Positions 2,268 to 63,254 of a DNA stretch of 64,000 nt are shown here, piece by piece; position 1 is the first letter of the stretch; each line of letters opens with the position of its first letter. The notes beneath the pieces were generated by a model that saw nothing but the letters and a program-made list of their open reading frames with translations, had not been told where the DNA came from and did not search any database. The stretch is from a virus. The stretch lies in the IMG/VR virus record IMGVR_UViG_3300034407_001956, positions 1-64,000 of that record. One strand, written 5' to 3'. A program made the translations under genes and the position numbers.

Positions 2268-3627
2268 GAATTTTAATCAATTCGGTCCGACATTTCAATC
2301 AAAGATAATCTCATCTTTACTGTCGGACAATAAGTTCATACAAACAATAAGCGATATATTAGAACCAGAGTTCTTCGATTCGGATGCCAATAAATGGCTA
2401 ACAAAAGAAGTTAGTAAGTATTTTATGGAGTTTAGAAAAGCTCCTACATTAGAAGTTCTCAAAATAAAAATAACTCAAATGGATGATGAGATATTAAAAG
2501 TATCTATCATTGAGAATCTTAAAGAAGCTTGGAGAAACATAGAGGCTACTGATTTAGAGTTTGTAAAACAGGAGACTTTAGGTTTCTGTAAGAATCAGGT
2601 TATTAAAGAATCGATTATGCAATCGGTTGATTTATTAGAACAAAAGAAATATGATGAGATAAAGGTAATAATTGATGCGGCTATGAAAGCTGGTAGTGAA
2701 AGAGATTTAGGACATGACTATATTATATCTCTAAACGACAGACTTACAGAATCAGTAAGGGAGACATTACCAACACCTTGGGATTCTATTACCAATGTAA
2801 TGGATGGTGGATTAGCTGGTGGTGAGTTAGGAGTATTAGTTGCTGCTGCTGGTGTTGGTAAGACTTGGTGCTTACAATCTCTGGCTGCTCATTTGGTAAA
2901 GCAAGGTAAGACTGTAGTTCATTATACTTTAGAATTGAATGAGGCTTATGTTGGACTAAGATATGATACTGTGTTTAGTGGTACACCAACTGCTAATATA
3001 AAATACTATCAAGATGATGTTCAGAAAGTTATAGATAAGTTAGAAGGTAAGTTGATTATAAAATACTATCCAACTCGTTCTGCTTCGGTAAATACATTAG
3101 CTTCTCATCTGAAACAGATGGAAATACAGGAAATCAAACCTGATGTGGTTATAGTTGATTATGCTGATATTTTAAAACCAACCACATTCTATAAAGAGAA
3201 GAGGCATGCTACTGGTGAAACCTATGAGAATCTTCGTGGTATGGCTGGTGAGTTTGATATTCCAATATGGACTGCTTCACAGGCAAATAGAAGTTCGTTA
3301 GAAGAAGATGTGATTGATGCTAGTAAAGTATCAGAGGATTATAGTAAGGTTATGACAGCAGACTTTGTTATGTCAGTTAGTCGAAAGGTTGAGGATAAGA
3401 TTGCTAATACTGGTAGGGTGCATGTAATCAAAAACAGATTTGGTATTGATGGAATAACATTTCCTGCAGAAATCAATACAAATACAGGTCACATACAAGT
3501 GTATGAAGCATCAACGCAGGGTGGGAAATCAGCACAAGGTAAGATGGATAATTCAGAAGAATATTTAAGACAAACATTATCTAAAAAATATAATGACTTA
3601 AAACCAAAAACTGAAGGATTTGAGTAA
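2257..3627 (+). CDS. Replicative SF4 helicase (DnaB/T4 gp41-like)
   Basis: Walker A AAAGVGKT, YTLEL, VIVDYAD, WTASQANR, KNRFG. Confidence 0.95.
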   Translation: MASENFNQFGPTFQSKIISSLLSDNKFIQTISDILEPEFFDSDANKWLTKEVSKYFMEFRKAPTLEVLKIKITQMDDEILKVSIIENLKEAWRNIEATDLEFVKQETLGFCKNQVIKESIMQSVDLLEQKKYDEIKVIIDAAMKAGSERDLGHDYIISLNDRLTESVRETLPTPWDSITNVMDGGLAGGELGVLVAAAGVGKTWCLQSLAAHLVKQGKTVVHYTLELNEAYVGLRYDTVFSGTPTANIKYYQDDVQKVIDKLEGKLIIKYYPTRSASVNTLASHLKQMEIQEIKPDVVIVDYADILKPTTFYKEKRHATGETYENLRGMAGEFDIPIWTASQANRSSLEEDVIDASKVSEDYSKVMTADFVMSVSRKVEDKIANTGRVHVIKNRFGIDGITFPAEINTNTGHIQVYEASTQGGKSAQGKMDNSEEYLRQTLSKKYNDLKPKTEGFE

Positions 3628-3692: not shown

Positions 3693-5702
3693 ATGGAAAA
3701 ATTTACATTATCAGAAAATTTTATAAATAAGTTTAAAAGAAAAAAACCACCATTCGGTTTCAACGGATTAGGTGAGTTGGTTTATATGAGAACCTACTCA
3801 AGAATTAAAGAAGATGGAAAGAATGAAAGATGGTGGGAAACAGTTAGAAGAGTCGTAGAGGGAACATACTCTATGCAAAAAAATCACATTGATGGACATC
3901 AATTAGGGTGGAATCCGTGGCAAGCTCAAAAGTCAGCGCAAGATATGTATGAGCGCATTTTCAGTATGAAGTTTTTGCCACCTGGCCGTGGACTTTGGGC
4001 TATGGGAACAGCCATAACCGAAGAAAAGGGTTTATACGCCGCCCTCAACAATTGTGCATTTGTATCAACATCAACAATAAAAGATGACTATGCTAAACCA
4101 TTCTGTTTCCTTATGGATGCAAGTATGTTAGGAGTAGGAGTTGGATTTGATACTAAGGGTGCTGGTGAGATTATCGTAAAGGGTATAGACGAAAGTCGTG
4201 ATGAATCCCTATTTGAAATACCAGATACTCGTGAGGGTTGGGTTGAGTCTCTTAAAGTTCTTTTAGAAAGTTACTTTCACGGAACTGCTCCTATCAAATT
4301 TGATTACTCAAAGATAAGAGCGGCTGGAGAACCAATCGCAGGATTTGGTGGAGTATCAAGTGGTCACGAACCTTTGCTTGAAGTACACAAAGATATAATA
4401 AAGGTTTTAGAAAAAAATGAAGGTGAACCAATAACAATAACAACAATTGTAGACATAATGAATCTGATTGGCAAATGTGTTGTAGCAGGTAATGTAAGAA
4501 GAACTGCTGAGATTGTATTTGGTGATCCGCACGATGAAGAGTATTTAGATTTAAAAAATTACAAAGTAAATCCGGATAGGGAGACATATGGTTGGACTTC
4601 TAATAATAGTATATATGCAGAACTCGGTATGGATTATACTGATGTATGTCGAAGAATAGTAGATAATGGAGAACCAGGCTTTGCTTGGTTAGATAATATG
4701 AGACATTACTCTCGTATGAAGAATGGTGGGGATGATAAAGACCATAGGGTAATGGGCGGTAATCCTTGTTTAGAACAATCACTAGAATCATACGAGTTAT
4801 GTTGTTTAGTAGAAACATTTCCACACAATCACGATTCATTAGAAGATTATCAAAGAACTTTAAAATATGCATATTTGTATGCTAAAACAGTTACATTAGG
4901 AAGAACTCATTGGGCTGAAACCAATAGGGTTATGTTAAGAAATAGAAGAATAGGATGTTCTGTAAGTGGAGTAGCTCAGTTTATTACAAAGAATGGAATG
5001 GGTGAACTACAGAATTGGTTGGAGACAGGATATGATACAATACAAGAATGGGATAAACAATATTCTGATTGGTTTGCTGTACCGAAGTCAATTAAAACAA
5101 CATCAGTTAAACCAAGTGGCACTGTTTCCTTATTGGTTGGTGCTACTCCAGGAATGCATTACCCTGAGTCGAGGTTTTATATTAGGAGAATGAGATTATC
5201 AAAGCATTCAGAACTATTAGAACCACTAAAGAAAGCTAACTATAAATTAGAACCAGCTTTTGGTTCAGAGGACACAACAATGGTTGTTGAAGTTCCTGTA
5301 GATGTCGGTGAGGGGATAAGAACAGCAGCTGAACTTTCAATTTGGGAACAATTTAGTTTAGCTGCTTTCTTACAAAGACATTGGGCTGATAATCAGGTAA
5401 GTTGCACTGCTACTTTCGATCCAGAAACAGAAGCTAACCAACTACCACACGTTTTAAATTACTTTCAGTATAAATTAAAGGGTATATCATTACTACCACG
5501 ACACGAATTAGGTGCTTATAAACAGATGCCATATGAAGCTATCACAGAAGAAGAATATAATACTATGGTAGGTAAGTTAGGTAAATTATCTTTCGGTGTA
5601 ATCAAAAATGAAGAGGCTGATATAGATAAATTCTGTAATAACGATAGTTGTGAAGTACCACCTTTAACAGGTGATAATGACGATCAAGAATATGCAAATT
5701 AA
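3693..5702 (+). CDS. nrdJ: Class II adenosylcobalamin-dependent ribonucleotide reductase (monomeric RTPR type)
   Basis: PPGRGLW, LNNCAF, VVAGNVRRTAEI, NPCLEQ thiyl-radical loop, TTSVKPSGTVS, C-terminal CNNDSC pair; SD AGGAG at 3683-3687. Confidence 0.93.
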   Translation: MEKFTLSENFINKFKRKKPPFGFNGLGELVYMRTYSRIKEDGKNERWWETVRRVVEGTYSMQKNHIDGHQLGWNPWQAQKSAQDMYERIFSMKFLPPGRGLWAMGTAITEEKGLYAALNNCAFVSTSTIKDDYAKPFCFLMDASMLGVGVGFDTKGAGEIIVKGIDESRDESLFEIPDTREGWVESLKVLLESYFHGTAPIKFDYSKIRAAGEPIAGFGGVSSGHEPLLEVHKDIIKVLEKNEGEPITITTIVDIMNLIGKCVVAGNVRRTAEIVFGDPHDEEYLDLKNYKVNPDRETYGWTSNNSIYAELGMDYTDVCRRIVDNGEPGFAWLDNMRHYSRMKNGGDDKDHRVMGGNPCLEQSLESYELCCLVETFPHNHDSLEDYQRTLKYAYLYAKTVTLGRTHWAETNRVMLRNRRIGCSVSGVAQFITKNGMGELQNWLETGYDTIQEWDKQYSDWFAVPKSIKTTSVKPSGTVSLLVGATPGMHYPESRFYIRRMRLSKHSELLEPLKKANYKLEPAFGSEDTTMVVEVPVDVGEGIRTAAELSIWEQFSLAAFLQRHWADNQVSCTATFDPETEANQLPHVLNYFQYKLKGISLLPRHELGAYKQMPYEAITEEEYNTMVGKLGKLSFGVIKNEEADIDKFCNNDSCEVPPLTGDNDDQEYAN

Positions 5703-5708
5703 ACGCGG

Positions 5709-5742
5709 ACAGGCAGCTGACACACCTGTGAAAAAATGTGTC
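5709..5742 (+). promoter_or_regulatory. H-type pseudoknot in TBDR 5' leader (candidate riboswitch or cis-regulatory RNA)
   Basis: S1 ACAGG 5709-13/CCTGT 5725-29; S2 GACACA 5719-24/TGTGTC 5737-42; A-rich L3 GAAAAAA; SD AGAGGAG 5755-61. Confidence 0.6.
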
Positions 5743-5768
5743 TTAACTAAGAAAAGAGGAGAACGTTA

Positions 5769-8498
5769 ATGAAGAAACGTAATCTAATAATAACATTACT
5801 AATGACAACAGGATTGTTCGCACAATCTATCGTTGGAGTTGTTGGTAATGGTAAAGAACCATTGGCAGGAGCTAATGTGATTGTTGTCGGAACTGATAAA
5901 GGTGGTGTAACAGATGAGTCTGGTAAATATACTATCGATGTTGGAGCTGAAGGCACATACACATTAACTGCTTCTTTCATTGGGTACTCATCTTTAACAC
6001 TTGATGTTAAGGTGGGTGATATAGTTGGAACAGCAAACTTCGATTTAGAAGCAGATGTTTTAGCTATGTCAGCGCTTGAGGTTTTAGCATCAAGAGCTGA
6101 TGAAACAACGCCTGTTGCTTACACTAATGTTAGTAAAGAGGATTTGGAATTTCGTCTTGGTTCACAAGATATTCCAATGGCTCTAAATACTACACCGAGT
6201 GTATACGCTACTGGCCAAGGTGGTGGAGCTGGAGATGCTCGTATCAATGTACGTGGTTTCAACCAAAGAAACGTTGCTGTTATGATTAACGGTGTTCCCC
6301 AAAATGATATGGAGAACGGATGGGTTTATTGGTCTAACTGGGATGGTGTTGCAGACGCAGCCCAATCAGTTCAGATGCAAAGAGGACTATCTGCTGTTAA
6401 TTTAGCTACACCGTCTATTGGTGGAACTATGAACATAATCACAGATCCTGCTGCTCAAGAAAAGGGTGGTAAAGTAAAGCAAGAAGTAGGTGAGGGTGGA
6501 TTCCTCAAATCTACTTTGAATTATAACTCAGGTCTTATCAATGATAAACTAGCACTTAGTGGAACTATTGTTCGTAAAACTGGTGATGGTTTCATCGATG
6601 GAACTTGGACAGATGCATGGGCTTACTATTTCGGAAGTTCTTATCAGCTGAATGATGAACATCGATTTGAGTTATATGGAATAGGCGCCCCACAAAGACA
6701 CGGTCAAAACCTATATAAACAGAACATAGCGACTTACTCACAAGATTTAGCAGGAGACATTAGTGGTTATAATGATTCTGCTTATGTAGCTGGTGAGAAG
6801 TTTGAAACTGAAGCTGGTAGGTTCTACAATCAGAATTGGGCTCCTGTCGATCCTTCTTATAAAGGTAAACAATACTTTTATATGTATGGTGATAAAACAC
6901 AGGATAGATTCAGTTCTGATTTTCTAAATGAAAGAGAAAACTTCTTTCATAAACCACTTGTAAACCTAAATCACTTTTATGATATAAATGATGATATGAG
7001 GTTAAGTTCAGTACTTTACTGGAGTGGTGGTTCAGGTGGTGGAACTGGTACTTACGGAAGTGTCAGTAGAAAACCTGCAGTTGAAGGAGAACCTTGGTAC
7101 GCAAGTTCACCTTGGATGTGGGATTGGAATGCCGAGATAGCTCAGAACTCTGCTAATGTAGATTCTGCTTTCTCTGATGTTGAAAATCGTTCAACAGGTA
7201 TTCTTAGGAACTCAATCAATAGACAAAATACTTATGGTTTGATTTCAAAATTAAACTATGATGTATCAGATGCTCTTGAAATTCAAGTCGGTATTGATTG
7301 GAGAACTGCTGGAATAGAACATGCTAGAGAAGTTCGTGACTTACTTGGTGGAGACTACTATGTAGATTACGCTGATGACAATGCTCCTGATGGTAAGAAA
7401 GTTGGGTTAGGTGATATTATCGCTTACCACAACGAAACCACAGTTGATTGGTTTGGTGCTTTCTTACAAGGTAAGTATGACATCGCTAAGTTCAACTTAT
7501 ATGGTATGGGTGGAATATCCACTATTGGATATACATATCAAGACCATTTCTCAGTTGATAAAGAAGTTGTTAAGGCTGATGCTATTACTACTTTCCAAGT
7601 GAAAGGTGGTGGTAGATATAATCTTGATGACAGACTTTCAGCATTTGCTAACATTGGGTATGTTGAGAAACCACCAATCTTAGACAATGTGATTGATTAT
7701 GATGGTAATGTTTCACAGAATCCAGATAATGAAAAGTTCATTTCTAACGAAATCGGTGGAGAATACAGAAGCGATTTAGTTGCTATCAAAGGTAGTTTTT
7801 ATAATACCCAATGGAAAGATAGAAACCTTACCAAATCTGTAACTACTGGACAAGGTGATTCAGGCGACTCAGACATCATTTATCTTACTGGCGTAAATCA
7901 AACTCATAGTGGTTTTGAGATAGAGTCTAAAGTTGCTCTTCACAAAATGGTTGAGTTAGATGTAGCGATAAGTATTGGTTCTTGGAAGTTCGATGGAGAT
8001 GCTAAAGGTGACTACACAGAGATGGAATACAATGATGATAATCAAATTATTGGACAAACATCTACTGAGTACCAATATGCTCTTAATGGTCTAATGGTTG
8101 GTGATATGCCACAAACTGCTTATGTTGGTGGCCTTACACTTAAACCAATTGATGGACTTAGCTTACAAGGTCTCTATAGAATATACGACAATCACTATGC
8201 TGATTGGAGTCCTGATTCTCGTGAGGTTGATGGTGATGCTGATAGGGCGCAAGTTTGGAAATCTCCTGGATATTCTAAGCTTGATTTACATATTGCATAT
8301 AAACTACCAGAAATTGCAGGTTTAGATATGACTATAACAGGTCATCTATTCAATGCACTTGACAATGTTTATGTTCAAGACGCTGTTGATAATAGTCAAT
8401 ATAATGGGTATGGTGACAAAGTTCACGCTGCTCATAATGCTGAAGTATTTCTTGGAACACCAAGACACTTCAACTTAGGACTTGCTGTCAATTTCTAA
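5769..8498 (+). CDS. TonB-dependent outer-membrane receptor with N-terminal carboxypeptidase-regulatory-like domain
   Basis: Signal peptide; EPLAGANV...GGVTDESGKY...ASFIGY domain; plug (INVRGF, VMINGVP, GGTMNIIT); C-terminal beta-signal FNLGLAVNF. Confidence 0.93.
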   Translation: MKKRNLIITLLMTTGLFAQSIVGVVGNGKEPLAGANVIVVGTDKGGVTDESGKYTIDVGAEGTYTLTASFIGYSSLTLDVKVGDIVGTANFDLEADVLAMSALEVLASRADETTPVAYTNVSKEDLEFRLGSQDIPMALNTTPSVYATGQGGGAGDARINVRGFNQRNVAVMINGVPQNDMENGWVYWSNWDGVADAAQSVQMQRGLSAVNLATPSIGGTMNIITDPAAQEKGGKVKQEVGEGGFLKSTLNYNSGLINDKLALSGTIVRKTGDGFIDGTWTDAWAYYFGSSYQLNDEHRFELYGIGAPQRHGQNLYKQNIATYSQDLAGDISGYNDSAYVAGEKFETEAGRFYNQNWAPVDPSYKGKQYFYMYGDKTQDRFSSDFLNERENFFHKPLVNLNHFYDINDDMRLSSVLYWSGGSGGGTGTYGSVSRKPAVEGEPWYASSPWMWDWNAEIAQNSANVDSAFSDVENRSTGILRNSINRQNTYGLISKLNYDVSDALEIQVGIDWRTAGIEHAREVRDLLGGDYYVDYADDNAPDGKKVGLGDIIAYHNETTVDWFGAFLQGKYDIAKFNLYGMGGISTIGYTYQDHFSVDKEVVKADAITTFQVKGGGRYNLDDRLSAFANIGYVEKPPILDNVIDYDGNVSQNPDNEKFISNEIGGEYRSDLVAIKGSFYNTQWKDRNLTKSVTTGQGDSGDSDIIYLTGVNQTHSGFEIESKVALHKMVELDVAISIGSWKFDGDAKGDYTEMEYNDDNQIIGQTSTEYQYALNGLMVGDMPQTAYVGGLTLKPIDGLSLQGLYRIYDNHYADWSPDSREVDGDADRAQVWKSPGYSKLDLHIAYKLPEIAGLDMTITGHLFNALDNVYVQDAVDNSQYNGYGDKVHAAHNAEVFLGTPRHFNLGLAVNF

Positions 8499-8510
8499 AA
8501 TGGTAAACTT

Positions 8511-8535
8511 GGGGGGAATTTATTTCCCCCCTTTT
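8511..8535 (+). terminator. Intrinsic terminator after TBDR
   Basis: GGGGGGAA-TTTAT-TTCCCCCC followed by TTTT. Confidence 0.85.
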
Positions 8536-8548
8536 ATCAAAATAAACC

Positions 8549-8578
8549 TTGACTTATGTAAGGTTTTAGTTGTATATT
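8549..8578 (+). promoter_or_regulatory. Sigma70-type promoter for polB
   Basis: TTGACT-N18-TATATT. Confidence 0.7.
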
Positions 8579-8610: not shown

Positions 8611-11106
8611 ATGTATCAAAATATTTATTACGACAATAAAACGCAAACAGTTCATATTTGGGATGATGAAACAGGCTACTACACTTTACCATATAAGAAA
8701 TATGCTTATGTAAAAGACAGAGCTGGTACTCATATATCTCTATATGGAGATAAATTGAAGAAAGTATATAGATTCGATCCAGACACACCTAATTTATTTG
8801 AATCAGATGTACCGCCTGAAACTCGTGTGTTGGTAGACAACTACGCAGATTCAGAAGAACTATCAAATGGTCATCGTATTATGACAATCGATATTGAGGT
8901 AGAGGTTACAGATGGCTTTCCATATCCCGAAGATTCTAAAGATAAAATAACTGCTATCGCAGTTCATAACTCAGAAGAGGATGAGTATTATTGTTTGGTG
9001 TTAGATGAGAAAAAGAAACTCAGTTTGAAATCAAAAGATAATGAAATCATAGAATCCTTTGAAACAGAGTTTGATTTACTACAAAGATTTTTTCTATTAT
9101 ATTTAGATTGGAAACCAACCATTATTACAGGTTGGAACTCTGATTCATTTGATATGCCTTACATTTACAATAGAGCTTGTAAGATTGTTGGTTCTGATAT
9201 AGCTAATTTAATCTCACCAATAAGAGAAGTAAAGTGGAACAAACATCGTAAGAGGTTTATGTTTGCTGGTGTTAGTTGTTTAGATTACTTAGCTCTATAC
9301 AAACTATTCACATACACTCAACTATCCTCTTACAGATTAGATGCTGTAGCTGAACACGAACTTAGTGAAAAGAAAGTTGAGTATACAGGAACACTCAATG
9401 ACTTATATGAGAATAACATAGATAAGTTTGTGGAATATAATATCCATGATGTTAGGCTTGTAAAGAGATTGCACGACAAATTAGATTTAATCGATATGGC
9501 TAGAGGTGTGTGTCACGTAGGTCATGTTCCTTATGAGGATGTATATTTTTCCTCACGTTATTTAGAAGGTGCTATCTTAGTCTATTTAAAGAACTTAGAA
9601 GTCGTAGCACCAAATAAACCAGCAAGACCAAATATGAATAGTGATGAGAAGTTTGCTGGTGCTTATGTCCAACCACCACAAAGAGGTAAACACGATTGGG
9701 TATTTGATTTAGATATTACATCTATGTATCCATCCGTAATTATGTCTCTGAATGTATCACCCGAAACAAAGATGGGTAAATTAAAAGGTTGGGATGCTGA
9801 AGAATTTATGAAAGGTACAAAGAAAACCTATACCCTTATGTCAGGCGAAAAAGAGATGGGTAAACTTTCTGAATTAGAATTAAAAGATTTCTTTGACAAT
9901 AACAAAGTATCAGTATCTTCTAATGGTGTTCTATATCGTAGTGATAAGAAAGGTTTGATTCCAGCCCTATTAGAGAAGTGGTTCGATACTCGTGTGGAGT
10001 ATAGAAAGTTGATGAAGAAGTTCGGTGATGAGGGAAACAATGAAAAGTATACTTACTTTAAAAGTCGTCAGCTAATACAGAAGGTGGTTCTAAACTCTTT
10101 GTATGGTGTATTAGGTTTGCCAGTATTTAGGTTCTATGATTTAGATAATGCTGAGGCTACAACACTTACAGGTCAAGAGTTAATTAAGTTTACTAAAAAG
10201 ATTGGTAATCATTTCTACAATAAAGAATTGGGTACTAATGAAGATTATTGTATTTACATAGATACAGATTCAGTATTCTATTCAGCTCTTCCATTGGTTA
10301 AGAAGAGGTTTCCTACTATGGATTTCGATAGTGAGACTATGATGAGTAAGAGGATATTGGATGTGGCTGATGAGATGCAGGGGTTTCTAAATAAGTCTTA
10401 TGACTACTTCGGTAAGAAGTTCCTAAACTTAGATAAACATAGGTTTGAGATAAAGCAGGAATTGATTGCTAAATCAGGTTTATTCATTGTGAAGAAACGA
10501 TATGGTATGAAGATTATCAATGACAATGGAGTAAAGGTAAACAAACTGCATGTCAAAGGATTGGACTTGGTTCGTAGTAATTTTCCAAAGGCTATGGGTG
10601 AACTACTGAAGAGTGTGTTGGAAGATATTCTGGCTACTGTTCCAAAGGATAAGATAGATGAGAGGATTATAAACTTCAAAGAATCTATGAAACTATTAGA
10701 CTTTGATAGGATAGCGATGCCAACAGGTATAAATAATCTAAAGAAGTACACAAATGGTAAGGCTGGTAAGTTTACAAAGTTTGCTAAGGGTGCGCCTGCT
10801 CACATAAAAGCAGCACTAACCTATAATGATTTATTAAAACACTTCGGAGTTGGTAAGAAGTATGAGAAGATAAGTAACTCTGAAAAGATTAAGTGGGTGT
10901 ATCTCAGACCAAATGATTTAGGATTAGAATCATGCGGTTACAAAGGTTATGAAGACCCACCAGAAATAATTAATTTTATTAAGACAAACATAGATTACAA
11001 AAAGATGTATGCTCAGATGTTAGAGAAGAAGATAATGATGTTTTATGAATCTCTAAAATGGAATGAGCCGGTAAACAAAAAGACATCTATGGAAAGATTT
11101 TTTTGA
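8611..11106 (+). CDS. Family B DNA polymerase (T4 gp43-like)
   Basis: Exo DIEV, GWNSDSFD, YNIHDV; pol DITSMYPS, KVVLNSLYG, YIDTDS, KKRY. Confidence 0.97.
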   Translation: MYQNIYYDNKTQTVHIWDDETGYYTLPYKKYAYVKDRAGTHISLYGDKLKKVYRFDPDTPNLFESDVPPETRVLVDNYADSEELSNGHRIMTIDIEVEVTDGFPYPEDSKDKITAIAVHNSEEDEYYCLVLDEKKKLSLKSKDNEIIESFETEFDLLQRFFLLYLDWKPTIITGWNSDSFDMPYIYNRACKIVGSDIANLISPIREVKWNKHRKRFMFAGVSCLDYLALYKLFTYTQLSSYRLDAVAEHELSEKKVEYTGTLNDLYENNIDKFVEYNIHDVRLVKRLHDKLDLIDMARGVCHVGHVPYEDVYFSSRYLEGAILVYLKNLEVVAPNKPARPNMNSDEKFAGAYVQPPQRGKHDWVFDLDITSMYPSVIMSLNVSPETKMGKLKGWDAEEFMKGTKKTYTLMSGEKEMGKLSELELKDFFDNNKVSVSSNGVLYRSDKKGLIPALLEKWFDTRVEYRKLMKKFGDEGNNEKYTYFKSRQLIQKVVLNSLYGVLGLPVFRFYDLDNAEATTLTGQELIKFTKKIGNHFYNKELGTNEDYCIYIDTDSVFYSALPLVKKRFPTMDFDSETMMSKRILDVADEMQGFLNKSYDYFGKKFLNLDKHRFEIKQELIAKSGLFIVKKRYGMKIINDNGVKVNKLHVKGLDLVRSNFPKAMGELLKSVLEDILATVPKDKIDERIINFKESMKLLDFDRIAMPTGINNLKKYTNGKAGKFTKFAKGAPAHIKAALTYNDLLKHFGVGKKYEKISNSEKIKWVYLRPNDLGLESCGYKGYEDPPEIINFIKTNIDYKKMYAQMLEKKIMMFYESLKWNEPVNKKTSMERFF

Positions 11107-11163: not shown

Positions 11164-11880
11164 ATGAACAAACATTCACTAAGCCGCTTTATTGATAAGT
11201 ACTATCTTGGCGGAAATTGTTCATCGGTTGTAATTAATAGTAAAGGGGATAATCTCTCTACTCGGTTTATTACTGGTGATAAGAATCTACTTGGAGAACT
11301 AACAATGACTGGTTGGAAGTTCGATGATGCTGATTTAGGTGTATATAACACAGAGCAGCTTGTTAAGTTACTATCGGTTCTATCAGAAAACATAACAATG
11401 AATCTTACAAAAGCTGGAGATAAAGCAGTATCTCTTAAAATATCAGATAGTAATTCCGATGTTAATTATATGCTTTCAGATTTATCTGTTATTAGTTCAC
11501 CACCTAATCTAAAGTCTATACCTGATTTTGAGGTAAAGATAAAAGTTGATAAGTCTTTTATGCAGAAGTTTATTGCTGGTAAAGGTGCTTTGGCTGATAC
11601 TGATAATTTTACAGTATTGACAAATGACGATGGCGTAAAGATTGTAATTGGTTATGCTGAGATTAGTACAAATCGTGTTACGCTTCCTGTAGAAACAGAA
11701 TCTTTTGATAAGATAGACAATGTTTCTTTTAACGCTAATCTATTCAGAGATGTGTTGGTAGCTAATAAAGAATGTGAAGGTGCGACATTGGAAGTAAGTT
11801 CAGGCGGTTTGGCTAGAATTAATTTCAAAGTTGATGAGTATGATGCCACATATTATTTAGTTGCTGAACAAGATGTGTAA
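11164..11880 (+). CDS. Sliding clamp (gp45/PCNA-like)
   Basis: 238 aa acidic protein between PolB and clamp loader; C-terminal ATYYLVAE typical of clamps; SD AAGGAG. Confidence 0.75.
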   Translation: MNKHSLSRFIDKYYLGGNCSSVVINSKGDNLSTRFITGDKNLLGELTMTGWKFDDADLGVYNTEQLVKLLSVLSENITMNLTKAGDKAVSLKISDSNSDVNYMLSDLSVISSPPNLKSIPDFEVKIKVDKSFMQKFIAGKGALADTDNFTVLTNDDGVKIVIGYAEISTNRVTLPVETESFDKIDNVSFNANLFRDVLVANKECEGATLEVSSGGLARINFKVDEYDATYYLVAEQDV

Positions 11881-12647
11881 TGGAAGAAAAGTATGTAGAT
11901 AAGTCTAGAGTTTCTGTCAGGCCAATCTATAAACCATTGGCTAAGGATATGATAGAAAAAAACCACTATAGTGGTAGGTTGTCATCTTGTCGCTATCCGC
12001 TTGGAATCTTTTATCAAACTGATAATGAACATAAATTCTTTGCGGAACCTGAAGAGAAACTCATAGGAGTTGCTTGTTATGGTTTTCCTGTTGGAAGAAG
12101 GGTCTTAGGTTCTATCTTCTCTGAAGAGATATTAGAGAATAGAAACATATTAGAACTTACGAGACTCTTCATCCACGATGGTTATGGTAAGAATATTGAG
12201 TCTTTGGCATTAGGTCTTACATTCAAATGGATGAAAGATAATGCCAAAGATATAAAGGTTCTAATATCATATGCTGATCCCGAACAATCTCATGATGGTG
12301 CTATTTATCAAGCTACTAATTGGATTTATCAAGGTTGTGGTGCTTTTCAAATGGCACCAACCTTTTCTCTTAGACTTGAAGAAGATGGTGAATGGATGCA
12401 CAGTAGAAGTGTGTATTCAAAATTCGGTTCTTCTGCACCTGAAAAGATGAAGAAGTCAATAGGTCATGATTTTTGGTTAAAGAAGGAAGCCAGCAAACAT
12501 AGATACATTTACTTTTTAGGCAACAAAAAAGAGAATAGGAAATTTCATAGTGTGATGAAACACCCACAAATGAAGTATCCTAAGAACTACAAACACGATA
12601 TTGAAATAACAAAAATAGAGGTTAATAACGAAAAATGGAAAGATTAG
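11880..12647 (+). CDS. Mom-like GNAT-fold DNA modification protein (paralog 1)
   Basis: NHYS, LIGVACYG, LELTRLF, IES, LISYADP..HDGAIYQATNWIYQG, KHRYIYFL. Confidence 0.78.
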   Translation: MEEKYVDKSRVSVRPIYKPLAKDMIEKNHYSGRLSSCRYPLGIFYQTDNEHKFFAEPEEKLIGVACYGFPVGRRVLGSIFSEEILENRNILELTRLFIHDGYGKNIESLALGLTFKWMKDNAKDIKVLISYADPEQSHDGAIYQATNWIYQGCGAFQMAPTFSLRLEEDGEWMHSRSVYSKFGSSAPEKMKKSIGHDFWLKKEASKHRYIYFLGNKKENRKFHSVMKHPQMKYPKNYKHDIEITKIEVNNEKWKD

Positions 12648-28400: not shown

Positions 28401-29626
28401 TGAAGATATATTGTATACTAATGGACACAGTTCCAAGACACGGAAAGATTAGAGATGCTTTTAATAGTAAGGGAGTACAATTTTCAGACCACATAACTTG
28501 TAGTTCTACTGTGCCAACTCTTATAACTATGTTTGGTGGCAAAACGCCAACAGAAATGTTTGGAATAGGTGGGGTTGGTCATTCACATTCGTATGGTAGA
28601 TTGGTTACTGATAAGAAGAAGTGGGATGAACAGATGTTGTTTCATATGATTCCTAATGATTGGACAATACATATTCACTCAATGCCATTAACTAGAGGAG
28701 ATGGAGGAAGAGGTGATTTCGGAGACACTAGCTTTAAACTTTTACCTGATGATATATGTGGTAGAACAGACAATATGAAATTCTATGAATACGATTCAAT
28801 GCGAGATGAGAATACTTTTATAAAAAAGATGCAGAACTTACCAACAGATGGTGTAGCTCGAGACATTCCATCTAAACCAAATCACTTCATAGTTTTAAAG
28901 TTTAATCACTACCACGACTCAGCTAGAGGACATCATATAAATTACGGTGGTGAGACAATAGAAGCTACTTCTGAAAATATAATAGATATGTATGCTGATA
29001 TGATAAAGGAAATGGATTTTGAACAACCGGATTCTTTATTTTGGGTATTTGCAGATCATGGAGAACCACATAATATTAATATAATGATGCCGCCGCCAGA
29101 TTCTTGGTTGGCTTGGTGTGGTGTTAAGGATAATATTAGTGGCAGAAAAGATATTAAGAAAATAATAGGTTGCGATGACTTTAAGAATACAGTATTAAAT
29201 AGAGTATATGATACAAGTAAAGGAGATGAAGAGCACATTCCTTTGCCAAATGATGCTTTCGGTGAGTTGGATATGGATAGAATTTATGTTCGTGAAGATG
29301 GTAGAAGTGCTGTAAATCCTAATTATGCTTCAACAGTATCTGCTGTGAAGGCTTTAGATGAGGATCGTTACATACAATATATAAACCACTCACCGAATGC
29401 ACATAAAAGACAATTTCACAATCAACAAGAAAGAGTTATTATCTACAATAAAACTACAAATACCATTGATATACCAAATGTAATAGAATCAGAAATTGGT
29501 GAAAAATTAAAACAACACCTTTTAGATGGGCCTTGGGAATGGTACTTTAGGAGAGTAGATGGAGAAGATGAAGAGGAAAAGAAAAGAGCTGAACCTAAAC
29601 CTGTAAAGAGAAGAGTAATAGGATGA
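28400..29626 (+). CDS. Alkaline phosphatase/sulfatase-superfamily protein (Thr nucleophile)
   Basis: ILMDTVPR, STVPTL..MFGG, HYHD, VFADHG. Confidence 0.6.
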   Translation: MKIYCILMDTVPRHGKIRDAFNSKGVQFSDHITCSSTVPTLITMFGGKTPTEMFGIGGVGHSHSYGRLVTDKKKWDEQMLFHMIPNDWTIHIHSMPLTRGDGGRGDFGDTSFKLLPDDICGRTDNMKFYEYDSMRDENTFIKKMQNLPTDGVARDIPSKPNHFIVLKFNHYHDSARGHHINYGGETIEATSENIIDMYADMIKEMDFEQPDSLFWVFADHGEPHNINIMMPPPDSWLAWCGVKDNISGRKDIKKIIGCDDFKNTVLNRVYDTSKGDEEHIPLPNDAFGELDMDRIYVREDGRSAVNPNYASTVSAVKALDEDRYIQYINHSPNAHKRQFHNQQERVIIYNKTTNTIDIPNVIESEIGEKLKQHLLDGPWEWYFRRVDGEDEEEKKRAEPKPVKRRVIG

Positions 29627-30912
29627 GCAAAGTTTATGTTGGAATGTGTGCTGATTTAATTCATCACGGACATCTTAATATAATAAAAGAAGCTAAAAAA
29701 TATGGAGATGTTGTGGTAGGTTTACTTACTGATTCTGCTATAGCTAGTTATAAAAGATTACCTGCTTTAAGTTACAAAGAAAGAAAAATAGTTGTAGAAA
29801 ATATAGTCGGTGTTAGTGAAGTTATACCACAAGAAACATTGGATTATATACCTAACATAGAAGAACTGAAACCAAAATATGTGGTGCACGGAGATGATTG
29901 GAAAGAAGGAGTTCAAAAGCAAGTTAGGCAGGGAGTGATAGATAAGTTAAAAGAGTGGGGTGGAGAAGTTATTGATGTTCCATATACTAAAGGAGTATCA
30001 TCTACTAAATTGCACAATCACTTAAAGGATATAGGAACAACGCCTGATATTAGAAGGAAGATGTTAAAGAGATTGTTGAATTCAAAACCGATTGTAAAGG
30101 TATTAGAAGCACACAATGGATTGACTGGTTTAATCGTAGAAAAAACAAAGGTGGGAAGTGATGAGTTTGATGCTATGTGGTTAAGTAGCCTAACTCATTC
30201 AGCCTCTAAAGGTAAACCAGACAATCAGTATGTAGATATAACCACAGTTAGTCAAACGTTAAGTGAGATATTTGATGTTACAACAAAGCCGATGATTGTT
30301 GATTTAGATAATGGTGGTATGATTGAACACTTTAAATTTACAATAAGAACCTTAGAAAGAATGGGTGTATCTGCTGTAATAATTGAAGATAAGATTGGTT
30401 CTAAAAGAAACTCTCTTTTTAAAGATACATCTAATCAGACACAAGATAATCCGAATGAGTTTGGAAACAAAATATCAGAGGGTAAAAAGTCTTTAGTAAC
30501 AAAAGAGTTTATGATTATAGCTAGGATAGAAAGTTTTATATTAGATAAGGGTATTGATGACGCTATCTATAGAGCAAGCATTTATATCAGTAATGGTGCT
30601 GATGGTATTATGATTCATAGTAAGAGTGAAAGTACCAATGAAATATTATCTTTCTGTAAACGTTATGAAAAGTTTAAGAAAAAAGTTCCTTTGGTGGTTG
30701 TGCCATCTACTTATAATAGAGTGGTAGAAGAAGAATTAATTAATATTGGAGTAGATGTAGTTATTTATGCTAATCATTTATTAAGAAGTTCTTATCCAGC
30801 GATGATTAATACTGCTAAATCTATTTTAGAAAATAAAAGGTCTTATGAGGCTAATAAAAGTTGTTTACCAATAAAAGAAGTTTTGGAGTTAATACCAAAT
30901 GATTATACTTAA
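29623..30912 (+). CDS. pepM: Cytidylyltransferase-phosphoenolpyruvate mutase fusion
   Basis: N-terminal DLIHHGH (HxGH), VVHGDDW, GVSST; PepM EAHNGLTG, DLDNGG, signature EDK-IGSKR-NS, IARIES, IYANH. Confidence 0.93.
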   Translation: MSKVYVGMCADLIHHGHLNIIKEAKKYGDVVVGLLTDSAIASYKRLPALSYKERKIVVENIVGVSEVIPQETLDYIPNIEELKPKYVVHGDDWKEGVQKQVRQGVIDKLKEWGGEVIDVPYTKGVSSTKLHNHLKDIGTTPDIRRKMLKRLLNSKPIVKVLEAHNGLTGLIVEKTKVGSDEFDAMWLSSLTHSASKGKPDNQYVDITTVSQTLSEIFDVTTKPMIVDLDNGGMIEHFKFTIRTLERMGVSAVIIEDKIGSKRNSLFKDTSNQTQDNPNEFGNKISEGKKSLVTKEFMIIARIESFILDKGIDDAIYRASIYISNGADGIMIHSKSESTNEILSFCKRYEKFKKKVPLVVVPSTYNRVVEEELINIGVDVVIYANHLLRSSYPAMINTAKSILENKRSYEANKSCLPIKEVLELIPNDYT

Positions 30913-63182: not shown

Positions 63183-63254
63183 GCGAGTATCGTATAATGG
63201 TTATTACCTTAGCCTTCCAAGCTAATGATGTTGGTTCGATTCCAACTACTCGCT
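63183..63254 (+). tRNA. tRNA-Gly(UCC); CCA not encoded
   Basis: Acceptor GCGAGTA/TACTCGC, anticodon arm TTAGC-CTTCCAA-GCTAA, T arm GTTGG-TTCGATT-CCAAC, U discriminator. Confidence 0.95.

What the first reader, a model, noticed from the sequence alone, without database searches (positions are those of the whole stretch)
3693..8535. Full-length TonB-dependent receptor inside the phage replisome, directly behind a B12-dependent RNR
Seen: a 909-aa TBDR (signal peptide, plug, barrel ending in Phe) sits between nrdJ and polB. No terminator is evident between nrdJ and the TBDR, and a strong one follows it. Known: class II RNRs need adenosylcobalamin, and Gram-negatives import cobalamin via TBDRs (BtuB). 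Inference: the phage may bring its own outer-membrane importer for a cofactor or precursor feeding dNTP synthesis. Receptor swapping or superinfection exclusion are alternatives. The substrate cannot be read from the sequence.
Basis: partly seen in the sequence, partly recalled or inferred. Interest (0 to 1): 0.72.

Follow-up and report, generated by a model that had tools for sequence, protein, structure and literature searches.

The report
Phage-carried SAR406 outer-membrane importer gene
A widespread group of uncultured marine T4-like phages carries an intact, strongly conserved copy of an outer-membrane TonB-dependent importer taken from SAR406 (Marinimicrobia) bacteria. It sits behind the phage's B12-dependent ribonucleotide reductase, but the evidence says it is neither the vitamin B12 nor the thiamine receptor.

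Summary
Window 5769-8498 encodes a complete 909-aa TonB-dependent transporter (TBDT) with a signal peptide, a CarboxypepD_reg N-domain, a TonB box, a plug, a barrel and a terminal Phe. It lies between nrdJ (3693-5702) and polB (8611-11106). There is no terminator before it and a strong one after it (8511-8535).

It is not an assembly chimera: nrdJ precedes the TBDT in 75 of 76 related IMG/VR loci with enough upstream flank.

The gene is host-derived. Phage copies form one clade nested inside a single-copy Marinimicrobia (SAR406) orthologue group (51-67% identity). They evolve under strong purifying selection (dN/dS about 0.13).

The B12 reading is not supported:
- Host orthologues carry no cobalamin riboswitch.
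- Host genomes have separate riboswitch-linked BtuB-like and TPP-linked receptors.
- The TBDT occurs without nrdJ (L079).
- It has been lost at least five times, once leaving a deletion scar (L235).

The gene travels with its own phage-specific 34-nt H-type pseudoknot leader (5709-5742), which is supported by covariation.

The best reading is a nutrient-uptake auxiliary gene that adds copies of a host importer of unknown cargo.

The scan has already found this module on other DNA, and my tests agree with those reports. New here are a secreted TonB_C-only protein in the same phage, the exclusion of thiamine, and the loss count.

The parts
3565..3594 (+). Sigma-70-like promoter match upstream of nrdJ (TTAAGA-18-TATAAT); candidate start of an nrdJ-TBDT transcript
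   Evidence: Consensus scan only. The number of such sites equals the shuffle expectation, so this is weak.
3693..5702 (+). nrdJ, an adenosylcobalamin-dependent ribonucleoside-triphosphate reductase (monomeric class II)
   Evidence: TIGR02505 at 350.5 bits, above the cut-off; phrog_367 at E 9e-136. It is 76-94% identical across relatives. It was not found with this query in 5 Marinimicrobia genomes.
5709..5742 (+). Phage-specific H-type pseudoknot leader of the TBDT. S1 is 5709-5713 paired with 5725-5729. S2 is 5719-5724 paired with 5737-5742. The A-rich loop is 5730-5736.
   Evidence: It is present once, on the + strand, directly upstream of the TBDT in all 77 TBDT loci that have upstream sequence. 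It is absent from TBDT-less phage loci and from host loci. 98.4% of cells are paired, 5 of 11 pairs have compensatory changes, and 0 of 500 shuffles reach this. There is no Rfam match.
5754..5761 (+). Shine-Dalgarno AAGAGGAG, 7 nt before the ATG and 12 nt after the pseudoknot
   Evidence: Read from the sequence.
5769..5825 (+). TBDT signal peptide (aa 1-19), with predicted cleavage LFA|QS
   Evidence: Read from the sequence. The A|Q ending is shared by other secreted proteins of this phage.
5826..6068 (+). CarboxypepD_reg-like N-terminal extension (aa 20-100)
   Evidence: PF13715 at 57.2 bits and PF13620 at 44.3 bits. This is the most variable part in both phage and host copies.
6069..6101 (+). 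TonB-box/linker (aa 101-111, ...ALEVLASRADE)
   Evidence: E104, V105, A107, S108 and R109 are invariant across 37 phage and host sequences. Entropy is 0.22 in phage and 0.38 in host copies.
6102..6464 (+). Plug domain (aa 112-232)
   Evidence: PF07715. This is the most conserved region, with entropy 0.18 in phage copies. pLDDT is about 90 in the model.
6465..8498 (+). Beta-barrel (aa 233-909) ending in Phe, plus the stop codon
   Evidence: AF2 model and Foldseek hits to full-length TBDTs. F909 is nearly invariant.
8511..8535 (+). Intrinsic terminator closing the cassette
   Evidence: GGGGGGAATTTATTTCCCCCC followed by TTTT. It is retained in the TBDT-deletion scar of L235.
8549..8578 (+). Promoter-like element (TTGACT-18-TATATT) before polB
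   Evidence: Consensus scan. The same CTTGAC...GTATATT block precedes polB in TBDT-less relatives.
8611..11106 (+). T4-type family B DNA polymerase (flanking phage core gene)
   Evidence: PF00136 and PF03104; phrog_262 at E 4.5e-187. It is 46% identical to Microcystis phage Mel-JY01.

Best explanation
The gene is an auxiliary, host-derived nutrient-uptake gene. An ancestor of this marine T4-like phage lineage captured, once, the single-copy CarboxypepD_reg-Plug-barrel TonB-dependent transporter of its Marinimicrobia (SAR406) host. The phage copy is transcribed with or just after nrdJ in the replication-gene block. Its translation is set by a phage-evolved H-type pseudoknot placed 12 nt before the ribosome-binding site. 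The protein is then exported by the host Sec machinery, inserted by BAM through its C-terminal Phe signal, and energised by the host TonB-ExbBD through its unchanged TonB box. Extra transporter copies raise uptake of the same cargo as the host orthologue during a long infection in nutrient-poor water. This is the logic of cyanophage pstS. The cargo is not known; it is not cobalamin and not thiamine. Adjacency to nrdJ reflects the insertion site of a self-contained cassette (leader, gene, terminator) rather than a biochemical coupling. Shown here: intactness, host origin, single capture, purifying selection, cassette autonomy, repeated loss, and non-orthology to the host B12 and thiamine receptors. 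Inferred: expression timing, membrane insertion, TonB coupling, the benefit to the phage, and the role of the leader.
For: All TBDT features are intact. 79 of the 80 best cellular loci lack phage genes (the other, L081, is a mis-binned phage contig); they are 51-67% identical, most are labelled Marinimicrobia/Fidelibacterota, and many share synteny (SRAP upstream; dnaE and dnaG nearby). A mostly single-copy match at E<=1e-100 is found in 61 of 121 sampled genomes of that phylum. The phage copies form one clade (SH-aLRT 100, stem 0.24) nested among Marinimicrobia. The median pairwise dN/dS is 0.13 with synonymous sites near saturation (pS 0.57), against 0.22 for polB. Site-wise conservation in phage copies tracks that of host copies (r 0.64). 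The plug and TonB box are the most conserved parts, loops are no more variable than strands (0.50 against 0.51 bits), and there are only 13 fixed phage-versus-host differences in 909 sites. The leader always travels with the TBDT, including when 0.6-1.1 kb is inserted after nrdJ and in the nrdJ-less context of L079. Phage G+C (about 33%) matches surface Marinimicrobia loci (31-36%).
Against: No ligand, expression or membrane localisation has been shown. The host neighbourhood gives no substrate clue, because it holds housekeeping genes. Outer-membrane proteins are stable, so the need for extra copies within one infection is an assumption. The gene is dispensable: there are at least 5 presence/absence changes on the nrdJ tree, and 13 of 72 loci lack it. 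The same phage encodes a secreted TonB_C-only protein. By established knowledge of periplasmic TonB fragments, such a protein would be expected to inhibit TonB-dependent transport rather than help it.
Confidence: 0.55

Rival explanations
1. One reading: the TBDT imports cobalamin (or a precursor) to feed the adenosylcobalamin-dependent NrdJ encoded just upstream.
For: nrdJ directly precedes the TBDT with no terminator in most relatives. BtuB shares the fold (rank 18). The phage also has CobT-like and CobS-like genes.
Against: There is no BtuB HMM hit. There is no cobalamin riboswitch in the window or at six host orthologues. Hosts have a separate riboswitch-linked BtuB-like receptor that is unrelated to this protein. 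The TBDT cassette occurs without nrdJ, and nrdJ occurs without it. BtuB is no closer structurally than siderophore, PQQ or copper transporters.
Confidence: 0.07
2. Receptor-related role. The abundant host orthologue is the receptor of this or competing phages, and the phage copy alters adsorption (superinfection exclusion, a decoy at lysis, or receptor replacement). It may act together with the secreted TonB_C-only protein, which would block TonB-dependent entry.
For: TBDTs are classic phage receptors (FhuA with T5/T1, FepA with H8; established knowledge; Foldseek hits 8a8c and 8a60). The host orthologue is a conserved, probably constitutive outer-membrane protein. The phage encodes a signal-peptide + TonB_C-only protein, conserved in 4 of 5 long relatives, and a roughly 30-kb surface-glycan gene block.
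Against: Predicted extracellular loops of the phage copies are not hypervariable and carry only 4 of the 13 fixed differences from host copies, so the phage copy would look like the host protein to any phage. Making more receptor would trap progeny. The conserved TonB box and plug are unnecessary for a decoy. The TonB_C gene is kept in a relative that deleted the TBDT.
Confidence: 0.15
3. Non-import envelope role. The barrel acts as an export or assembly channel (as Myxococcus Oar does for PopC) or as a structural partner for the phage's glycan/phosphonate surface-modification genes.
For: The CarboxypepD_reg-Plug-barrel architecture is shared with Oar-type proteins (established knowledge, not tested here). 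In L079 the cassette sits between a sulfotransferase/glycosyltransferase and a KDO8P/DAHP-synthase-like gene. The window holds a large glycan cluster.
Against: In most relatives the cassette lies in the replication block, far from the glycan genes. Host orthologues are not next to secretion or glycan genes. No homology to Oar was tested.
Confidence: 0.08

Closest known systems
Uncharacterised CarboxypepD_reg-Plug-barrel TBDT orthologue group of Marinimicrobia/Fidelibacterota (e.g. loci L084, L085, L088)
   Same: Same length and architecture, 51-67% identity over the full length. The TonB box and plug are nearly invariant, and the site-wise conservation profile is the same. The phage clade is nested inside this group.
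   Different: The host genes lie in a housekeeping neighbourhood (SRAP, dnaE, dnaG), lack the pseudoknot leader and are not next to an RNR. No member has a known substrate.
SusC-like TonB-dependent receptor genes of marine megaphage Mar_Mega_1 and LR745206 (PMC9723777)
   Same: A phage-encoded TBDT proposed as a nutrient-uptake auxiliary gene.
   Different: Similarity is limited to the plug region (about 26-30% over 130-190 aa to the LR7xxxxx megaphages). The phage lineage and likely host are different, and no nrdJ linkage or RNA leader is described.
BtuB (E. coli cobalamin transporter, PDB 1NQE/2GSK)
   Same: Same TBDT fold and TonB-box mechanism.
   Different: 14-15% identity, about 300 residues shorter, and no N-terminal extension. 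There is no TIGR01779/NF007926 hit and no cobalamin riboswitch. The host has its own BtuB-like gene.
Thiamine-regulated outer-membrane receptor (Omr1/OMthi type), the automatic name of one near cluster in the ESM Atlas
   Same: CarboxypepD_reg + Plug architecture; the name appears on a neighbouring cluster.
   Different: There is no TPP riboswitch at the phage gene or at host orthologues. TPP riboswitches in host genomes precede a different 764-790-aa receptor that is about 30% identical over the N-terminal 300 aa only.
Cyanophage nutrient-acquisition auxiliary genes (pstS, phoA)
   Same: It works alike: a host-derived uptake component, patchily distributed among related phages, under purifying selection and expressed during infection (established knowledge).
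   Different: Different protein family and cell compartment. The regulation here is a phage-specific RNA leader rather than a host Pho box. The benefit is not demonstrated.
T4 gene 32 mRNA leader pseudoknot and small pseudoknot riboswitches (preQ1-I/II, SAM-II)
   Same: A compact H-type pseudoknot with an A-rich third loop, just upstream of an unstructured A/U-rich ribosome-binding region in a T4-like phage (the comparison is from memory).
   Different: No Rfam family matches. No ligand or protein partner is known. It occurs only before the TBDT.

Membership tests
TonB-dependent transporter superfamily | N-terminal signal peptide | tested here: met
   MKKRNLIITLLMTTGLFA|QS, read from the translation. 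No dedicated predictor was available.
TonB-dependent transporter superfamily | Plug domain (PF07715) above the Pfam cut-off | tested here: met
   54.8 bits against 23.9.
TonB-dependent transporter superfamily | Conserved TonB box before the plug | tested here: met
   The ALEVLASRADE motif has E104, V105, A107, S108 and R109 invariant in 37 phage and host sequences. Binding to TonB was not shown.
TonB-dependent transporter superfamily | Large beta-barrel enclosing the plug, with a C-terminal aromatic residue | tested here: met
   AF2 model with pLDDT 89.5. Foldseek E 7e-35 to Fiu, with TM-scores (target-normalised) of 0.7-0.82 to PqqU, YncD, FecA and BtuB. The protein ends ...VNF. The strand count was not checked on coordinates.
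BtuB / TonB-B12 (TIGR01779, NF007926) | HMM score at or near the curated cut-off | tested here: not met
   No hit at E<=0.01, whereas the host riboswitch-linked receptors give full-length hits.
BtuB / TonB-B12 (TIGR01779, NF007926) | Cobalamin riboswitch (RF00174) control | tested here: not met
   None in the window or in six host orthologue loci. The single RF00174 copies in host genomes precede another gene.
BtuB / TonB-B12 (TIGR01779, NF007926) | Cobalamin binding and transport | not testable with these tools
   Needs a binding assay or btuB complementation.
SusC/RagA (TIGR04056) | Full-length HMM match and an adjacent SusD-like lipoprotein | tested here: not met
   46.7 bits over the N-terminal 160 aa only, against a cut-off of 368. 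The neighbours are nrdJ and polB. The host neighbours tested are not SusD-like; two conserved ones have no family hit.
Thiamine Omr1/OMthi-type receptor | TPP riboswitch control, or orthology to the TPP-linked receptor | tested here: not met
Phage auxiliary metabolic gene (host-derived, phage-maintained) | Flanked by phage core genes on many independent contigs, nested in a host clade, under purifying selection | tested here: met
Known riboswitch or leader RNA families (Rfam 15) | Covariance-model match for the 5709-5742 pseudoknot | tested here: not met
   The only match was a chance hit at E 8.1 on the other strand.

The most novel reading that the evidence does not exclude
The 34-nt pseudoknot is a new minimal riboswitch or protein operator that gates translation of the captured importer according to the infected cell's nucleotide or nutrient state. 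Together with the phage's secreted TonB_C-only protein, it would let the phage take over TonB-dependent traffic across the SAR406 outer membrane. The phage would silence host receptors, and TonB-dependent entry of rival phages, while controlling its own channel.
Probability: 0.12. Interest if true: 0.8.

Novelty: new variant of a known kind. Interest (0 to 1): 0.55.

Why it matters
SAR406/Marinimicrobia is an abundant, uncultured ocean phylum with no isolated phage. This cassette gives a gene-level link between a large, globally distributed T4-like phage group and that host. It also marks one specific outer-membrane importer as valuable enough for phages to keep under strong selection over a long period. 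Finding its cargo would show which nutrient limits phage production in these cells. The covarying pseudoknot leader is a compact, testable regulatory RNA. The result also warns against reading function from adjacency: the attractive nrdJ-B12 story fails every test that could be run.

Tried and rejected
- **B12 importer:** rejected on HMM, riboswitch, orthology and linkage tests.
- **Thiamine receptor:** this was a lead from an automatic cluster name. It is rejected because TPP riboswitches precede a different receptor.
- **Chimeric assembly:** rejected by recurrence on many independent contigs.
- **Recent exchange explaining the high conservation of nrdJ and the TBDT relative to polB:** rejected as the main cause. 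Synonymous sites are near saturation (pS 0.57-0.63), so stronger purifying selection explains it.
- **Leader inherited from the host:** the motif is absent from all host loci.
- **Leader as a stop-codon readthrough or frameshift stimulator for nrdJ:** rejected because its distance from the nrdJ stop varies from 6 nt to over 1 kb while its distance to the TBDT start stays fixed.
- **Ordinary MFE folding of the leader:** not informative (z -0.93), because it cannot model the pseudoknot.
- **Structure search for substrate clues:** only generic TBDT matches at 12-15% identity. The first AF2 run on a shallow alignment gave a poor plug and was replaced.
- **Complex prediction of the TBDT (aa 96-909) with the phage TonB_C protein:** returned no answer. 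It counts neither for nor against binding.
- **The search for related loci with the single TonB_C protein:** found nothing.
- **Literature:** six searches found no description of this lineage or cassette.
Full report
**What is there**

The window is part of a 94-kb, roughly half-complete viral record. All of its genes lie on the + strand and its G+C is about 33%. The first 14 kb is a T4-type replication block:
- 5'-3' exonuclease
- DnaB-like helicase
- nrdJ
- the TonB-dependent receptor
- PolB
- sliding clamp
- a Mom-like protein
- clamp loader

PolB is 46% identical to Microcystis phage Mel-JY01 and about 31-33% identical to pelagimyophage HTVC008M and cyanomyophages. The phage is therefore a distant member of the T4-like assemblage.

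The 909-aa ORF at 5769-8498 has every feature of a TonB-dependent transporter (TBDT):
- a signal peptide
- a CarboxypepD_reg N-terminal extension
- a conserved TonB box
- a Plug domain above the Pfam cut-off
- a barrel ending in Phe

With an 81-sequence alignment the AlphaFold2 model reaches pLDDT 89.5 and pTM 0.83. It matches full-length solved TBDTs at Foldseek E values down to 7e-35. The 66-nt gap after nrdJ has no terminator, and a strong terminator follows the TBDT at 8511-8535.

**It is real and widespread**

A scan of IMG/VR found 313 relatives at 74-85% identity, and a metagenome protein search found thousands.
- In the 80 loci kept, nrdJ precedes the TBDT in 75 of the 76 with upstream room, and polB follows in most loci that extend far enough downstream.
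- The backbone of these phages is very diverse (PolB 27-93%, helicase 52-94% identity to the window).
- nrdJ (76-91%) and the TBDT (74-85%) stay similar across them.
- Pairwise Nei-Gojobori estimates show this is due to constraint, not recent exchange. Synonymous sites are near saturation for all genes. The median dN/dS is 0.13 for the TBDT and 0.08 for nrdJ, against 0.22 and 0.20 for polB and the helicase.

**Where it came from**

Of the 80 best matches in one-genome-per-species prokaryote contigs, 79 carry no phage genes. Most are labelled Marinimicrobia, Neomarinimicrobiota or Fidelibacterota, and a few bear other bin labels. They are 51-67% identical over the full length.
- The one exception (L081, binned as Flavobacteriales) is a mis-binned phage fragment with nrdJ and polB.
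- The host gene is mostly single-copy. It was found at E<=1e-100 in 61 of 121 sampled genomes of the phylum, many of them incomplete.
- It lies in a conserved housekeeping neighbourhood: an SRAP peptidase gene upstream on the same strand, with dnaE, dnaG, cvpA and yqeY nearby.
- In an IQ-TREE analysis the phage copies form one clade (SH-aLRT 100, stem 0.24 substitutions per site) nested among Marinimicrobia sequences (the FastTree of all 164 sequences agrees).
- One 4.3-kb MAG contig (L082) falls inside the phage clade and is of unclear origin.

The simplest history is a single capture from a Marinimicrobia host. Two further points fit that host. The phage's G+C matches low-GC surface Marinimicrobia loci. 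The signal peptides of the TBDT and other secreted phage proteins end in A|Q, the pattern known from the Bacteroidetes "Q-rule" (my own knowledge).

**Is it the B12 receptor?**

Every test that could be run says no.
1. NCBIfam's BtuB models do not hit the protein at E<=0.01.
2. Rfam finds no cobalamin riboswitch in the window or in six host orthologue loci.
3. Four of five Marinimicrobia genomes contain exactly one cobalamin riboswitch. In each it sits directly upstream of a different 681-688-aa receptor whose best family hit is TonB-B12 over its full length. That receptor shows no significant similarity to the phage protein (E 0.018).
4. The linkage to nrdJ is not obligatory:
   - In L079 the leader-TBDT cassette lies between a sulfotransferase/glycosyltransferase and a KDO8P/DAHP-synthase-like gene, with no nrdJ nearby.
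   - Some relatives have 0.6-1.1 kb inserted between nrdJ and the cassette.
   - In 13 of 72 nrdJ-anchored loci with room, the TBDT does not follow nrdJ; polB follows directly in 12 of them.
   - One of these, L235, has a backbone 84-92% identical to the window. It retains the last ten or so codons of the TBDT and its terminator fused after nrdJ, which is a deletion scar.
   - On an nrdJ tree of 95 distinct loci, presence or absence of the TBDT needs at least 5-6 changes.
5. The phage-type nrdJ was not found with this query in five host genomes. The two genes therefore did not arrive together.

An automatic cluster name in the ESM Atlas suggested a thiamine-regulated receptor. I tested this too. 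TPP riboswitches in four host genomes precede yet another receptor of 764-790 aa. That receptor resembles the phage protein only in the N-terminal 300 residues, at about 30% identity in two of them.

**What the sequence says about function**
- Site-wise entropy in 82 phage copies correlates with that in 71 host copies (r 0.64).
- The TonB box and plug are the most conserved parts in both sets.
- The long, presumably extracellular, loops are no more variable than the strands in the phage copies (0.50 against 0.51 bits).
- Only 13 of 909 positions are fixed differences between phage and host, and they are spread over all regions.

This is the signature of a protein that still does what the host protein does and still talks to the host TonB. 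It is not the signature of a decoy or of a receptor in an arms race. Structure comparison gives only the generic fold: Fiu, PqqU, YncD, FhuA, FecA, OprC and BtuB all match at 12-15% identity. The host neighbourhood is housekeeping. The cargo therefore cannot be read from the data available. Earlier reports of this scan suggested nucleotide-type or organophosphate cargo. I saw only weak hints of that: replication genes beside the host orthologue and a weak alkaline-phosphatase-superfamily hit four genes upstream. I do not adopt it.

**The leader**

The gap holds a compact H-type pseudoknot:
- S1 is ACAGG/CCUGU (5709-13 paired with 5725-29).
- S2 is GACACA/UGUGUC (5719-24 paired with 5737-42).
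- The third loop is A-rich.
- The structure ends 12 nt before the Shine-Dalgarno sequence.

It is present once, directly before the TBDT, in all 77 TBDT loci that have upstream sequence. It is never found in TBDT-less relatives or in host loci. In 51 distinct sequences, 98.4% of cells pair and 5 of 11 pairs show compensatory changes (CG to UA, AU to UA, AU to GC). No shuffle or slid register comes close. No Rfam family matches.

It is therefore a phage-evolved part of the cassette. It could be a riboswitch, a protein operator of the T4 gene 32 type, or a stability or translation element. This remains open.

**Other things in the same phage**
- Outside the window, the same record encodes a 107-aa protein made of a signal peptide plus a TonB C-terminal domain only (PF03544, 45.5 bits). 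Homologues with the same architecture occur in four of five long related records, including the one that deleted the TBDT. It matches no PHROG family. Free periplasmic TonB C-domains inhibit TonB-dependent transport in E. coli (my own knowledge). This gene therefore fits a receptor-blocking or exclusion role better than a helper role, and it is the main reason I keep 15% on the receptor-related rival.
- The window also carries a roughly 30-kb block of surface-glycan genes, including a PEP-mutase/cytidylyltransferase fusion.
- The record encodes pilin-like proteins and a CobT/CobS-like pair.

**Verdict**

The finding is a genuine, long-maintained but dispensable, host-derived outer-membrane importer cassette in a large group of probable SAR406 phages.
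- It works, most likely, like other nutrient-acquisition auxiliary genes.
- It is a member of the TBDT superfamily.
- It is not a member of the BtuB, SusC or thiamine-receptor families.

Phage-borne TBDTs have been mentioned before, for megaphages (PMC9723777). I found no published description of this lineage, its host link or its leader. Earlier follow-ups of this scan reached the same main conclusions on other genomes, and I re-derived them independently here. New in this report are the thiamine exclusion, the loss count, the loop analysis and the TonB_C protein.

Noticed in passing
G000:76746-77069 (= L246:12746-13069), outside the window in the same phage record: A 107-aa protein made of a signal peptide plus a TonB C-terminal domain only (PF03544, 45.5 bits). 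Homologues 42-50% identical, with the same architecture, occur in 4 of 5 long related phage records, including the TBDT-deleted one. It matches no PHROG family. It may be a periplasmic TonB-box binder or decoy.
   Followed up: partly
window 18497-47285: A block of about 30 kb of surface-glycan/LPS-type genes: several glycosyltransferases (GT2, GT9 heptosyltransferase), a DegT aminotransferase, an NDP-sugar epimerase, C-methyltransferases, and a PEP-mutase fused to a cytidylyltransferase (29623-30912), which implies phosphonate decoration.
   Followed up: partly
L235:4412-4560 (IMG/VR contig of 95,890 bp): A close relative (exonuclease 92%, helicase 88%, PolB 84% identical) has nrdJ fused to the last ten or so codons of the TBDT plus its terminator. 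This is a clean deletion scar showing secondary loss.
   Followed up: yes
L079:7890-13580: The leader + TBDT cassette lies in a different phage context, between a sulfotransferase/GT2 fusion (664 aa) and a KDO8P/DAHP-synthase-like gene, with no nrdJ or polB within 10 kb.
   Followed up: partly
L165:3946-6012, L166:3250-5316, L167:381-2426, L168:310-2358 (Marinimicrobia genomes): Each genome's single cobalamin riboswitch precedes a 681-688-aa BtuB-like receptor. In one genome a DUF5074 protein with a T9SS sorting tail follows it. This is probably the host's B12 uptake locus.
   Followed up: partly
L256:1788-4082, L257:1675-4020, L258:205-2553, L259:1766-4138: TPP riboswitches in four Marinimicrobia genomes precede a 764-790-aa ORF; two of these show clear N-terminal (CarboxypepD_reg + Plug region) similarity to the phage receptor. 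It is a likely thiamine receptor, distinct from the phage gene's orthologue.
   Followed up: partly
many phage loci just 5' of the pseudoknot (e.g. L042:4180-4200) and host loci L083, L085, L086, L106, L133 upstream of the orthologue: A short TTCACATA(C) motif recurs upstream of the TBDT in many phage relatives and upstream of several host orthologues, but not in this window. It may be a remnant of the captured host upstream region or a promoter element.
   Followed up: no
L246:14055-17540 (G000:78055-81540): A CobT-like VWA protein (705 aa) and a CobS-like MoxR AAA+ ATPase (402 aa). This pair is common in marine T4-like phages and is often annotated as cobalamin biosynthesis.
   Followed up: no
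L246:8687-12643: A cluster of envelope-directed proteins: a secreted thioredoxin-like protein, a POPDC-like cNMP-binding membrane protein, two type IV pilin-like proteins (with an N-terminal methylation motif) and further secreted proteins. Several signal peptides end in A|Q.
   Followed up: no
window 11880-12647: A Mom-family protein (PF25680, 151.7 bits) lies between the sliding clamp and the clamp loader. It is present in only some relatives.
   Followed up: no
L082 (4,266-bp contig binned in a Neomarinimicrobiota MAG): Its TBDT falls inside the phage clade on the tree but lacks the pseudoknot leader and has no nrdJ upstream. It is either a mis-binned phage fragment or a transfer back to a cell.
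   Followed up: no
window 63183-63254: One tRNA gene (Rfam RF00005, 66.1 bits). Two TBDT-less relatives (L234, L237) carry a tRNA between nrdJ and polB.
   Followed up: no
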